Shown: piece by piece, positions 22,040 through 23,874 of the stretch
Layout of the letters: the number at the start of each line of letters is the position of its first letter
Numbering within the stretch: the first letter of the stretch is position 1
From: Minisyncoccota bacterium
Lineage (GTDB): Bacteria; Patescibacteriota; Minisyncoccia; Phycocordibacterales; UBA9973
Reading direction: 5' to 3'
Length of the DNA stretch: 64,000 nucleotides
NCBI GenBank assembly: GCA_041661005.1
Contig: JBAZVG010000001.1
Span: forward strand, 6,019 to 70,018
Made by a program: the position numbers and the translations under genes
Notes under the pieces: generated by a model
Databases searched by the model: none
The model's input: only the letters and a program-made list of their open reading frames with translations
What the model was told of the DNA's origin: nothing

Positions 22040-23590
22040 AGAGTTTGATCCTAGCTCAGGATGAACGCTGGCGGCGTGGATAAGGCATGCAAGTCGAACG
22101 GATTTTTCAAAATCGGAGATGCGATTATATCAAGTCAAAGGTCGTGAAAAATTAGTGGCGAACGAGGTAGTAATACATAGGAACTTCCCCAAGAGTCGTG
22201 AATAATTCGTCGAAAGACGGACTAATACACGATGGTCCCTGAGGCTTCGGCCGATGGGTAAAGTTTTAACGCTCTTGGAAAGGCCTGTGCGATATCAGCT
22301 AGTTGGCGGTGTAATAGACCACCAAGGCTATGACGTCTAGGGGAGGTGAGAGCCTGACCCCCACCGATGGTACTGAGACACGGACCATACACCTACGGGT
22401 GGCTGCAGTCGAGAATCTTCCACAATGGACGAAAGTCTGATGGAGCGACGCCGCGTGATTGATGAAGTCCCTCTGGGACGTAAAGATCTTTTATGAGGGA
22501 AGAAGTTTATTGACTGTACCTCATGAATAAGAGGCTCCTAATCTCGTGCCAGCAGGAGCGGTAATACGAGAGCCTCGAGCGTTATCCGGAATTATTGGGC
22601 GTAAAGGGTGCGTAGGTTGTTCTGTTAGTCTTTTGTCAAAGCCCCGGGCTTAACCTGGGATATGCGAAAGAAACGGCAGAACTTGAAAGTGTGAGAGGTA
22701 TATGGAACTCATGGTGTAGGGGTGAAATCCGTTGATATCATGGGGAACACCAAATGCGAAGGCAATATACTGGCGCATATTTGACACTGAAGCACGAAAG
22801 CGTGGGTAGCGAATGGGATTAGATACCCCAGTAGTCCACGCCCTAAACGATGATCTCTCGCTATTCGGAGTATCGACCCTCTGAGTGGCTTAGCTAACGC
22901 GTTAAGAGATCCGCCTGGGAAGTACGGCCGCAAGGCTAAAACTCAAAGGAATAGACGGGGACTTGCACAAGCAGTGGATTATGTGGTTTAATTCGATGGT
23001 AAACGAAGAACCTTACCAGGGTTAGAAATCCTAGTGAAATCCTTAGGAAACTTTGGACCTCGCAAGACTCTAGGACAGGTGATGCATGGCCGTCGTCAGT
23101 TCGTGGTTTGAATTGTACCCTTAAGTGGGCTAACGAACGCAACCCTCGTTGTGTGTTACAAGTGTCACACGAGACCGCCCCCGACAAAGTTTTTGATTCA
23201 TCAAGTTGATGCAATCGAAAGTTTCGTCGGGGGAGGAAGGAGAGGATGACGCCAGGTCAGCATGTCCCTTTGATACCCTGGGCTACACACATAATACAAT
23301 CGCCATTACAACGCGTTGCGACGAGGTAACTCTGAGCTAATCGTTTAAAAATGGCGTCAGTTCGGATTGGAGGCTGCAACTCGCCTCCATGAAGCTGGAA
23401 TTGCTAGTAATCGCAGGTCAGCTAAACTGCGGTGAATACGTTCTCAAGTCTTGTACTCACCGCCCGTCAAGTCAAGGGAGCCGGGAATACCCGAAGTCTC
23501 CACATAAGTGGGGCCTAAGGTAAGCTCGGTGACAGGGACTAAGTCGTAACAAGGCACGGGTAGCGGAAGCTGCTCGTGGAATAATTCAAT
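22040..23590 (+). rRNA. rrs: 16S ribosomal RNA (complete, ~1.55 kb), not followed by 23S/5S
   Basis: Begins agagtttgatcctagctcaggatgaacgctggcggcgtg. Contains gtgccagcaggagcggtaatac (the 515-region equivalent) and ggattagataccc. Helix 45 with GGAA loop sits at ~23555..23580. The 3' tail reads ...gtggaataattcaat with no ccuccu anti-SD. Confidence 0.9.
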
Positions 23591-23874
23591 TTGAAAACTG
23601 TCCCAATTTTTATTTATAAAAATTGAGGATCCCGCCATAGGCGGGATCCTGGTCTCGCCCCGCGAGACTGGACTAATTGAGTCGGTATTGTGTCGCTCAA
23701 TTGACGACACAATAGTCTAAGTATGTTGTGGACTTAAAGAAACATATTGACAGAGAGGAAAGACTCTTAAGTTAAAAAGAACGAAACAAAACAAAGAACA
23801 GTTCACCCCGCCATGGCGGGGCAAGCAAACAAAAATACCTCGCGCAAGCGGGGTATTTTTGTTATAATTTTATT

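What the first reader, a model, noticed from the sequence alone, without database searches (positions are those of the whole stretch)
23540..23600. 16S rRNA 3' end lacks the canonical CCUCC anti-Shine-Dalgarno; genes in the window lack SD motifs; 16S is not followed by 23S/5S
Helix 45 is intact (cacgggtagc-GGAA-gctgctcgtg). Where E. coli has GGAUCACCUCCUUA the sequence reads ggaataattcaattt, and no cacctcctt occurs anywhere downstream. The 20 nt upstream of start codons are A/T-rich without GGAGG/AGGAG (checked for ftsH, pyrG, secA, gyrA, murC, smpB, infB and prfB). Together these suggest SD-independent initiation with an altered or lost anti-SD. That is very rare in bacteria, where the anti-SD is usually retained even when SD is little used. 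In addition the 16S gene is followed by a ddl-like CDS and then tRNA-Leu/Pro, so rRNA genes are unlinked.
Basis: seen in the sequence. Interest (0 to 1): 0.65.

Follow-up and report, generated by a model that had tools for sequence, protein, structure and literature searches.

The report
CPR 16S without anti-Shine-Dalgarno; leaderless genes
This stretch of an uncultured ultra-small bacterium (Candidatus Nomurabacteria, candidate phyla radiation, CPR) has a complete 16S rRNA gene that has lost the sequence ribosomes normally use to dock onto mRNAs; the loss was already published for this group, and here about 40% of genes have a promoter placed so that the mRNA would begin at the start codon.

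Summary
The 16S gene (22033-23591) is full length and helix 45 is intact. Its tail reads GGAAUAAUUCAAUUU instead of GGAUCACCUCCUUU. No CCUCC lies anywhere in the precursor, which is bounded by a 30-nt processing stem and a terminator.

Genes show no Shine-Dalgarno (SD) enrichment: 4/59 against 6/59 in a control region. The same pipeline gives 31/59 against 5/59 on an E. coli region. No 23S gene follows the 16S, here or in 14 related contigs.

The organism is a Candidatus Nomurabacteria (Parcubacteria, CPR). Loss of the anti-SD in about half of Parcubacteria is published (Tsurumaki 2022). Unlinked rRNA genes in Patescibacteria are published too (Brewer 2019). The core finding is therefore already known for this lineage.

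Two things are added here:
- **Leaderless architecture.** A -10 promoter box, often TGn-extended, sits exactly 6 nt before the start codon. This holds for 14/59 window genes and 264/1140 genes of relatives, against a background of about 12 per position. About 38% of genes are therefore predicted to be leaderless. No replacement SD complementary to the new tail exists.
- **A covarying mini-hairpin.** The former anti-SD positions form the 5' arm of a small hairpin (UUCA-AUU-UGAA). It descends from a CUCC...GGAG hairpin in relatives that keep the anti-SD.

No transcript ends were mapped.

The parts
22033..23591 (+). 16S rRNA gene, full length, with CPR-type insertions
   Evidence: Rfam RF00177, 1357 bits, model positions 1-1533.
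23555..23578 (+). Helix 45 (CACGGGUAGC-GGAA-GCUGCUCGUG), intact
   Evidence: Sequence. 10 pairs, 99.5% paired over 80 distinct relatives, 6 pairs with compensatory changes.
23579..23600 (+). 3' tail GAAUAAUUCAAUUUGAAAACUG. It has no CCUCC, and the GAUCA motif read by Era is also changed, to GAAUA. Positions 23584-23588 (AUUCA) align with CCUCC of relatives.
   Evidence: Rfam alignment and covariance-model alignment A3. The same tail occurs on 7 metagenome contigs. The Era motif is taken from PMC10582724.
23585..23595 (+). Mini-hairpin UUCA-AUU-UGAA. Its 5' arm occupies the former anti-SD positions.
   Evidence: Helix 2 is 93.9% paired over 80 distinct sequences, and all 4 pairs covary. In a check not fitted to the structure, the TTCA arm has GAA downstream in 22/24 and GGA or GAG in 0/24; the CTCA arm has GAG in 2/2; the xTCC arm has GGA in 8/10. 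It is weak on its own: dG +0.2 kcal/mol, pair probabilities 0.33-0.51.
21940..21969 (+). 5' arm of the pre-16S processing stem (RNase III-type)
   Evidence: Inverted repeat I1, 30 nt, 90% complementary to 23779-23808. Cofold gives 26 intermolecular pairs.
23779..23808 (+). 3' arm of the pre-16S processing stem
23596..23778 (+). Highly structured 3' trailer made of several stable hairpins, with no CCUCC
   Evidence: Fold of 23541-23870: -130.9 kcal/mol, z = -11.35 against shuffles. CCTCC search.
23828..23863 (+). Terminator-like hairpin followed by a T-rich tract (ATAATTTTAT); it ends the 16S transcription unit
   Evidence: (I5).
21893..21920 (+). Candidate 16S promoter TTGAAC-16-AATAAT. A second candidate, TTGACT-17-TATACT, lies at 21660-21688.
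   Evidence: Consensus scan only. The number of promoter-like sites in the region is not above the shuffle expectation, so this is weak.
23860..23877 (+). Extended -10 box TGTTATAAT, a 6-nt spacer, then the GTG start of the ddl-like gene: a predicted leaderless start
23875..24846 (+). D-Ala-D-Ala ligase-like CDS directly after the 16S unit
   Evidence: Pfam PF07478 and NCBIfam TIGR01205, below the curated cut-off.
24917..25126 (+). tRNA-Leu(CAG) and tRNA-Pro(CGG)
   Evidence: ARAGORN and Rfam.
26591..26608 (+). Example of a leaderless start (secA): TGCTAATAT, 6 nt, ATG
   Evidence: That call lists 24 window ORFs with a TANHAT box 5-8 nt before an in-frame start; at 19 of them it is the annotated start.
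35388..36482 (-). Ribosomal protein bS1, short form with four S1 domains
   Evidence: Pfam S1 x4. Best NCBIfam hits are 30S protein S1 models, below cut-off.
48811..50694 (-). infB (IF2, 506 aa) followed by rbfA
   Evidence: TIGR00487 at 441.7 bits, above cut-off. PF02033.
10494..11411 (+). prfB (RF2) as one uninterrupted ORF, without the SD-stimulated +1 frameshift site. It starts 14 nt after tRNA-Thr.
   Evidence: TIGR00020 is the best hit. ORF and tRNA coordinates.

Best explanation
The window comes from a Candidatus Nomurabacteria genome (Parcubacteria/Paceibacteria, candidate phyla radiation).

Its single-standing 16S rRNA gene is functional but has lost the anti-Shine-Dalgarno sequence. 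Translation initiation in this lineage does not use mRNA-rRNA pairing.

Roughly four genes in ten have a sigma-70-type, often TGn-extended, -10 box ending 6 nt before the start codon. Transcription should therefore begin at the A of AUG, and the mRNA should be leaderless. It would be started by direct recognition of a 5'-terminal AUG with initiator tRNA and IF2. This step is inferred from established knowledge of leaderless initiation; no transcript ends were mapped.

The remaining genes have G-poor, A-rich upstream regions. They are presumably started on unstructured leaders, with help from the short bS1 encoded in the window, or by re-initiation after the preceding gene (inferred).

The known constraints on the tail are SD pairing, Era binding to GAUCACCUCC, and bS21 autoregulation in Flavobacteriales. 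With these gone or reduced in this lineage, the tail drifted to A/U. What stayed under selection is pairing between the former anti-SD positions and a segment 3-7 nt downstream. Relatives with a canonical tail have a CUCC...GGAG hairpin there; here it has become UUCA...UGAA through compensatory changes. Its most likely role is in 3'-end maturation of pre-16S rRNA (inferred, not shown).

The 16S is transcribed alone. It is bracketed by a 30-nt processing stem and ends at a terminator; the 23S gene is elsewhere.
For: **Taxonomy.** The 80 best FtsH relatives (81-91% identity) are Nomurabacteria, Paceibacterota or Patescibacteria MAGs.

**Anti-SD lost.**. The same tail is on 7 metagenome contigs.

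**No SD use.**, with an E. coli positive control.

**No replacement SD.**

**Leaderless architecture.**
- TANHAT lies at a spacing of exactly 6 nt in 14/59 window genes and 264/1140 genes of relatives, against about 12 per position in the background.
- TGNTANNNT gives 221 at spacing 6 against about 2.
- 24/61 window ORFs and 462/1201 ORFs of relatives have an in-frame start with the box 5-8 nt upstream. Frame and spacing controls give 3-11% in the relatives and 0-16% in the window.
- The position profile shows a -35 TTG, a TG extension and a -10 box. ATG makes up 98% of starts in this class against 85% in the rest.

**Other components in the window.** bS1, IF2 and RbfA are present. prfB has no frameshift site.

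**Hairpin.**. The GGAG/GAGG partner lies 5-7 nt after CCUCC in 27/34 canonical relatives, against 2/34 in a control region.

**Precursor anatomy.**

**Trend across lineages.** The leaderless signature is 20% in contigs of the window clade without anti-SD (controls 3-9%). It is 10% in CPR contigs with a canonical anti-SD (controls 0-10%).

**Literature.**
- Anti-SD is absent in 52% of Parcubacteria (PMC9297842).
- bS21 is often absent in Parcubacteria.
- Most CPR lack era, and Era reads GAUCA plus CCUCC (PMC10582724).
- Paceibacteria mostly lack era (PMC12641178).
- Ablating the anti-SD impairs 16S maturation in Flavobacterium (PMC13000453).
Against: - No transcript ends are known. Leaderless transcription and the mature 16S 3' end are both inferred from sequence.
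- Gene starts come from my own crude ORF caller.
- About 60% of genes have no -10 box at the start, and their initiation mechanism is only guessed.
- The mini-hairpin in the window is thermodynamically marginal (+0.2 kcal/mol). The large alignment was fitted to the structure. Part of the C-G to U-A change could arise from A/T mutation pressure acting on both arms without selection.
- The link between anti-SD loss and leaderless use across lineages rests on small samples (153 and 125 ORFs). It is weaker in other clades without anti-SD (14%).
- A second 16S copy elsewhere in the genome cannot be excluded from 64 kb.
- Absence of era, bS21 and uL1 in this genome was not tested.
Confidence: 0.75

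Rival explanations
1. The anti-SD is altered rather than lost. The new tail pairs with a co-evolved, A/U-rich replacement SD upstream of genes.
For: AATAA-like words are enriched at -22..-1 in genes without a -10 box (123 against 43). TTGAA, which is complementary to UUCAA of the tail, is weakly enriched (25 against 5).
Against: Complementarity to the tail is not enriched at -25..-1 relative to -55..-31, nor relative to shuffled tails, at k = 5, 6 or 7. This holds for the window and for 1140 genes of relatives. Words in the same sense as the tail are actually commoner than complementary ones. The tail sequence differs between close relatives, while upstream regions look alike. Amin et al. 2018 also found no case of a variant anti-SD matched by a variant SD.
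Confidence: 0.04
2. The 16S gene is a pseudogene, a mis-assembly, or a 3'-truncated copy. The functional gene or the real 3' end carries CCUCC elsewhere, for example beyond an intervening sequence.
For: CPR rRNA genes often carry insertions and introns (Brown 2015, as cited). Only 64 kb of the genome is visible.
Against: The Rfam match is full length, at 1357 bits. Helix 45 and its GGAA loop are intact and covary. The precursor is closed by a 30-nt leader-trailer stem and a terminator, with no CCUCC inside it. The same tail is on 7 metagenome contigs, and 72/117 related 16S genes lack CCUCC. The loss is published for this group.
Confidence: 0.03
3. The mini-hairpin is not functional. It is a decaying remnant of the ancestral CUCC/GGAG pairing, and its apparent covariation comes from shared ancestry and A/T pressure on both arms.
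For: Stability is marginal (+0.2 kcal/mol). C-G to U-A needs only the transitions that A/T pressure favours. Alignment A3 was fitted to the model. Only a few independent changes are visible.
Against: Changes back towards G-C occur on both arms together: UUCA/UGAA to UUCC/GGAA, and UUC/GAA to CUC/GAG. Mismatched intermediates are rare, at 1-6 of 80 per pair. Conservation stops right after the 3' arm.
Confidence: 0.3
4. Bacteroidia-type mechanism: the ribosome is made blind to SD because proteins bS21, bS18 and bS6 sequester the tail, and initiation relies on A-rich leaders alone.
For: There is no SD use. Upstream regions are A-rich at -7..-5 in genes without a -10 box.
Against: In that system the anti-SD is retained and is needed for rpsU translation; here it is gone. 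bS21 is reported as often absent in Parcubacteria. The dominant signal here is a -10 box at the start codon, which Naeem et al. do not list among the mRNA features important for initiation in Bacteroidia.
Confidence: 0.05

Closest known systems
Parcubacteria subgroup lacking the anti-SD motif (Tsurumaki et al. 2022, RNA 28:1041, PMC9297842)
   Same: Same lineage and same observation: the CCUCCU motif is absent from the 16S 3' end. That paper detected the motif in only 48% of Parcubacteria.
   Different: The paper reports only the absence and its overlap with the group lacking uL1. In the passages I read it gives no analysis of SD use, promoters, leaderless starts or tail structure.
Bacteria without an anti-SD listed by Lim et al. 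2012 and Amin et al. 2018 (Chryseobacterium, Elizabethkingia, Riemerella, Blattabacterium, Mycoplasma, Carsonella)
   Same: Helix 45 is intact, the tail lacks CCUCC, there is no SD enrichment, and no compensating variant SD.
   Different: A different phylum. Here the loss is accompanied by a strong leaderless promoter-start architecture and a covarying hairpin at the former anti-SD.
Leaderless-rich bacteria (Actinobacteria such as Mycobacterium tuberculosis, and Deinococcus; my own knowledge plus references cited)
   Same: A -10 box lies a fixed 6-7 nt before the start codon, there is a strong preference for AUG, and a quarter to a half of genes are affected.
   Different: Those lineages keep a canonical anti-SD and use SD for their leadered genes. 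Here the anti-SD is gone, and leadered genes have no SD either.
Bacteroidia SD-blind ribosomes (Jha 2021; Naeem et al. 2026, PMC13000453)
   Same: Initiation is independent of SD, and upstream regions are A-rich.
   Different: There the anti-SD is retained, sequestered by proteins, and needed for rpsU translation and 16S maturation. Here it is lost.
Unlinked rRNA genes (Brewer et al., bioRxiv 10.1101/705046)
   Same: 16S and 23S are not adjacent. Patescibacteria is named there as a clade with unlinked genes.
   Different: Nothing differs; this is a plain member.

Membership tests
16S rRNA lacking the anti-SD (Lim 2012, Amin 2018, Tsurumaki 2022) | Intact helix 45 followed by a tail without CCUCC | tested here: met
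16S rRNA lacking the anti-SD (Lim 2012, Amin 2018, Tsurumaki 2022) | No SD motif enriched upstream of start codons | tested here: met
   4/59 against 6/59 in the window and 74/1140 against 93/1140 in relatives. E. coli control: 31/59 against 5/59.
16S rRNA lacking the anti-SD (Lim 2012, Amin 2018, Tsurumaki 2022) | No variant SD complementary to the variant tail | tested here: met
Parcubacteria subgroup lacking the anti-SD (Tsurumaki 2022) | Belongs to Parcubacteria | tested here: met
   The best FtsH relatives are Nomurabacteria or Paceibacterota MAGs.
Parcubacteria subgroup lacking the anti-SD (Tsurumaki 2022) | Genome lacks ribosomal protein uL1 (reported overlap) | not testable with these tools
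Leaderless-mRNA-rich bacteria | -10 promoter box at a fixed distance of about 6-7 nt from the start codon in a large share of genes | tested here: met
Leaderless-mRNA-rich bacteria | Strong preference for AUG at these starts | tested here: met
   98% ATG against 85% in other genes; 430/462 ATG. My start rule favours ATG in both classes.
Leaderless-mRNA-rich bacteria | Mapped transcription start sites coincide with start codons | not testable with these tools
   No transcriptome data are available.
Bacteroidia-type SD-blind ribosome | Anti-SD retained in 16S and sequestered by bS21, bS18 and bS6 | tested here: not met
   The anti-SD is absent.
Unlinked rRNA genes | More than 1500 bp between the 16S and 23S genes | tested here: met
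   No LSU match in the window, which extends 40 kb downstream and 22 kb upstream of the 16S. None in 14 related loci, of which 11 hold roughly 4-14 kb downstream.

The most novel reading that the evidence does not exclude
The conserved hairpin is not only a processing signal but stays on the mature 30S subunit. In CPR relatives with a canonical tail, the anti-SD would then be permanently paired in cis with a GGAG a few nucleotides downstream, a built-in SD-helix mimic that masks it. In the Nomurabacteria clade, both arms were free to change as long as they still paired. These ribosomes would carry a cis helix in the SD-duplex chamber and be specialised for leaderless and unstructured mRNAs. 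That would also explain why helix 26, which contacts the SD helix, stays highly conserved in Parcubacteria, a point Tsurumaki et al. left open.
Probability: 0.1. Interest if true: 0.8.

Novelty: already known. Interest (0 to 1): 0.42.

Why it matters
The finding as written is already in the literature for this group: loss of the anti-SD, no SD use, and unlinked rRNA genes in a Parcubacteria genome.

The literature I could search did not say how such cells start translation. The sequence evidence here points to promoter-start fusion, meaning leaderless mRNAs, for about 40% of genes. No replacement pairing exists for the rest.

If transcript mapping confirms this, Nomurabacteria would be a natural bacterial case in which the SD/anti-SD system has been abandoned altogether. 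That bears on the view that leaderless initiation is the ancestral mode.

The covarying hairpin at the former anti-SD suggests that these nucleotides also have a role in rRNA maturation, separate from mRNA binding. This agrees with recent Flavobacterium genetics (PMC13000453).

There is also a practical consequence. Gene callers that rely on SD motifs will misplace start codons in these genomes, whereas the -10 box at 6 nt is a usable start-site signal.

Tried and rejected
1. **Finding the 16S of close relatives by synteny.** I fetched 80 loci around ftsH, but none contains a 16S.
2. **Exact-protein look-up of FtsH to identify the source contig.** Not on record.
3. **A replacement SD complementary to the new tail.** Rejected.
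4. **An alternative pairing of the tail with the 16S 5' end**, predicted by cofold. The 5' sequence AGAGUUUGAUCC is invariant while the tail arms vary, so covariation does not support it.
5. **A gap-free MAFFT alignment of tails (A1).** It put the 3' arms out of register, so I used a covariance model, plus a separate check not fitted to the structure.
6. **Correlating anti-SD status with SD use on the metagenome contigs.** Inconclusive. SD-like words occur in 14% of genes against 6% in control regions in canonical lineages, and 13-25% against 6-11% in lineages without anti-SD, on 40-125 genes each.
7. **The 'GTCGRT' element about 70-100 nt after the 16S**, first suspected to be the start of a 23S gene. 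No 23S is present in any of 14 loci, so the element remains unexplained.
8. **Literature searches** for 'leaderless' together with CPR, Patescibacteria or Parcubacteria found no paper describing this architecture. The library does not hold most subscription journals.
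Full report
**What is there.** Rfam places a full-length bacterial 16S rRNA at 22033-23591 on the + strand (1357 bits, model positions 1-1533). In the alignment of its 3' end, the model consensus ugGAUcACCUCCUUu lies opposite UGGAAUAAUUCAAUU. Helix 45 (23555-23578, CACGGGUAGC-GGAA-GCUGCUCGUG) is intact. The next CCTCC on the + strand after 23388 is at 29426.

**Precursor anatomy.**
- A 30-nt inverted repeat, 90% complementary, brackets the gene (21940-21969 and 23779-23808). 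In a cofold of leader and trailer it forms 26 pairs. This is the usual leader-trailer processing stem.
- The trailer between the gene and the stem is a chain of stable hairpins (z = -11.35 against shuffles).
- A terminator-like hairpin followed by a T-rich tract comes next, at 23828-23863.
- The whole precursor is therefore visible, and it holds no CCUCC.
- No LSU or 5S match exists anywhere in the window. The next features are a ddl-like CDS and tRNA-Leu and tRNA-Pro.

**Whose genome.** The 80 best relatives of the window's FtsH in the species-level genome collection (81-91% identity) are almost all labelled Candidatus Nomurabacteria, Paceibacterota, Minisyncoccia or Patescibacteria. The 16S carries the insertions typical of CPR. 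None of those 80 loci has a 16S next to ftsH, so the location of the gene is not conserved.

**No SD use.** I called ORFs with a simple longest-ORF rule and counted AGGA/GGAG/GAGG at -20..-4 against the same count at -57..-41.

| Sequence set | -20..-4 | Control -57..-41 |
|---|---|---|
| Window | 4/59 | 6/59 |
| 80 Nomurabacteria loci | 74/1140 | 93/1140 |
| E. coli ribosomal-protein region, same script | 31/59 | 5/59 |

The method therefore sees SD where it exists.

**No replacement SD.** Words complementary to the new tail are not enriched at -25..-1. This holds against the upstream control region and against shuffled tails, at k = 5, 6 and 7, in the window and in relatives. Amin et al. 2018 reached the same conclusion for other bacteria without an anti-SD.

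**What replaces it: promoter-start fusion.**
- Reading the upstream regions shows TAnAAT boxes, often preceded by TGn, just before many start codons.
- The position histogram is unambiguous. TANHAT ends exactly 6 nt before the start in 14/59 window genes. In relatives the count is 264/1140, with a further 66 at 7 nt and 43 at 8 nt, against about 12 per position elsewhere.
- The extended form TGNTANNNT gives 221 at 6 nt, against about 2.
- Allowing any in-frame start in the ORF, 24/61 window ORFs and 462/1201 ORFs of relatives (38.5%) have such a box 5-8 nt upstream. Frame-shifted and spacing controls give 3-11% in the relatives and 0-16% in the window.
- The averaged profile shows a -35 TTG, the TG extension and the -10 hexamer. 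ATG makes up 98% of these starts, against 85% in the other genes.
- Bacterial RNA polymerase typically starts about 7 nt after the -10 hexamer (established knowledge). These mRNAs should therefore begin at the A of AUG, that is, be leaderless.
- Even genes separated from the preceding same-strand gene by less than 50 nt have the box in 35% of cases.
- Window examples with coordinates are (secA, ddl, smpB, infB, the glutamate racemase-like gene and others).
- The remaining genes have G-poor, A-rich upstream regions (A at 50-56% at -7..-5, AATAA enriched) and T at -1 in about half. Their mechanism is not shown.
- The window encodes a short bS1 with four S1 domains, IF2 and RbfA.
- prfB is one uninterrupted ORF without the SD-dependent frameshift site. 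This fits the loss of the anti-SD, but many bacteria with an anti-SD also lack that site.

**The tail across the lineage.** One metagenome scan used a pattern from the 16S 3' domain and returned 120 contigs.
- Of the 117 with a readable tail, 45 have CCUCC and 72 do not.
- Among CPR-type sequences (helix 45 with GCGGAAGC), canonical tails read GGAUCACCUCCUUUCUAGGGAG.
- The others form series such as GGAUCAUUUUUUUUAAAAAU and GGAUCAAUUAAUUUAAAA, plus the window's type, GGAAUAAUUCAAUUUGAAAA, which is identical on 7 contigs.
- Intermediates exist (CACCUAAUUU, CAUCUCAUUU, CAUCUCCUUU).
- The GAUCA motif is also altered in the window (GAAUA).
- None of 14 related loci scanned with Rfam, three of them with canonical tails, has a 23S gene; 11 of them hold roughly 4-14 kb downstream of the 16S.

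**A conserved hairpin at the former anti-SD.**
- In canonical relatives a GGAG or GAGG lies 5-7 nt after CCUCC in 27/34 distinct sequences, against 2/34 in the next segment. It forms a hairpin of -6.1 kcal/mol.
- In the window's clade the homologous positions read UUCA-AUU-UGAA (23585-23595).
- Variants are CUCA...UGAG (L153; L093 reads CUCA...AGAG), UUCC...GGAA (L097, L109, L146) and UCC...GGA.
- A covariance model built from 13 sequences aligned 85 tails. The helix is paired in 93.9% of cells, and all four pairs show changes on both sides: UA 51/CG 19, UA 65/UG 5/CG 3, CG 53/UA 4/AU 2, and AU 33/CG 16/UA 6. No shuffle and no slid register comes close.
- That alignment is fitted to the structure, so I also took the 5' arm from fixed columns and asked what follows. 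TTCA is followed by GAA in 22/24 and never by GGA or GAG. CTCA is followed by GAG in 2/2. xTCC is followed by GGA in 8/10.
- Conservation ends right after the 3' arm.

Caveats on the hairpin:
- The window's version is marginal on its own (+0.2 kcal/mol, pair probabilities 0.33-0.51).
- The number of independent changes is small.
- C-G to U-A is what A/T pressure alone would produce, although the changes back towards G-C argue for selection.

**How this fits known work.**
- Tsurumaki et al. 2022 found the anti-SD motif in only 48% of Parcubacteria and noted overlap with the group lacking uL1. They also report that bS21 is often absent.
- Era binds GAUCA plus CCUCC just after helix 45, and most CPR have lost era. 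Paceibacteria mostly lack era, and an rbfA gene is in the window.
- In Flavobacterium, ablating the anti-SD impairs rpsU translation and 16S maturation.
- The known reasons to keep the tail sequence are thus weak or absent in this lineage. This step is an inference for this genome, since era, rpsU and rplA could not be checked in 64 kb.
- Unlinked rRNA genes in Patescibacteria are reported by Brewer et al..
- I found no paper describing leaderless architecture in CPR. The searchable library is incomplete, and I cannot exclude that gene-finder papers have classified such genomes.

**Association across lineages.**

| Group | ORFs | Leaderless signature | Controls |
|---|---|---|---|
| Window clade without anti-SD (metagenome contigs) | 153 | 20% | 3-9% |
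| Other CPR without anti-SD | 88 | 14% | 5-9% |
| CPR with canonical anti-SD | 125 | 10% | 0-10% |
| Nomurabacteria genome loci | 1201 | 38.5% | 3-11% |

The trend fits a link between anti-SD loss and leaderless use, but the samples are small. SD-like words are scarce even in the canonical CPR contigs (14% against 6%).

**Verdict.** As stated, however, it is a known property of this lineage. The leaderless architecture and the covarying hairpin are additions that deserve a transcript-end experiment. They raise the interest somewhat, but they rest on sequence inference only.

Noticed in passing
window 50700-52640 (upstreams of 50700-51158 on the - strand, 51263-52552 on the + strand, 52629-53462 on the + strand): Three neighbouring genes share a nearly identical promoter module of about 30 nt, TTGC(T/C)AAA.TC.ACTAACCGGGTATA, ending 6-8 nt before ATG. 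The genes are a DUF4446 protein, a class-V aminotransferase and an unknown. This looks like a small co-regulated set or a duplicated promoter.
   Followed up: no
window 23460-23469 (TGTACTCACCGCCCGTCA): The 16S has U where E. coli has A1396, inside the near-universal 1390-1400 segment.
   Followed up: partly
window 22100-22150 and 23175-23236: There are two insertions in the 16S relative to the Rfam model. One is about 35 nt near the 5' end. The other is a 62-nt hairpin with 24-nt arms (I2). Both look like CPR-type expansion segments.
   Followed up: no
window 23673-23718, and 70-100 nt after the 16S in most of L081-L200: A GTCG(G/A)T element, followed in the window by a 10-bp hairpin (GUAUUGUGUCG...CGACACAAUAG), recurs at a similar distance after the 16S. 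It is seen in both canonical and anti-SD-less relatives. It is not the start of a 23S gene, and its function is unknown.
   Followed up: partly
window 21995-22015, 23631-23645, 23806-23820: Similar GC-rich palindromes (CCGCC...GGCGG, for example CCCGCCATAGGCGGG and CCCCGCCATGGCGGG) are repeated in the 16S leader and trailer.
   Followed up: no
window 10405-10496: prfB starts 14 nt after tRNA-Thr with no promoter box in between. It may be co-transcribed with the tRNA and released by tRNA 3' processing, which would leave a near-leaderless mRNA.
   Followed up: no
window 56661-57525 and 48047-48562: A LAGLIDADG-domain ORF overlaps the start of tRNA-Tyr at its 3' end. An HNH-endonuclease ORF sits beside the tRNA-Leu/Lys/Leu/Cys cluster.
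   Followed up: no
window 42100-45140: Four consecutive paralogous ORFs carry a T4SS-pilin (PF18895) C-terminal domain.
   Followed up: no
window 18084-19077: smpB is followed directly by a tmRNA gene (Rfam, 115.9 bits). The tmRNA has a long insertion in the region of the tag reading frame relative to the model. The annotated first ATG of smpB is probably wrong: the second ATG (18090) has the -10 box at 7 nt.
   Followed up: no
window 15726-17963 (- strand): A trehalose-6-phosphate synthase (GT20) domain is fused to an N-terminal Cache-like sensor domain and lies next to a trehalose phosphatase gene.
   Followed up: no
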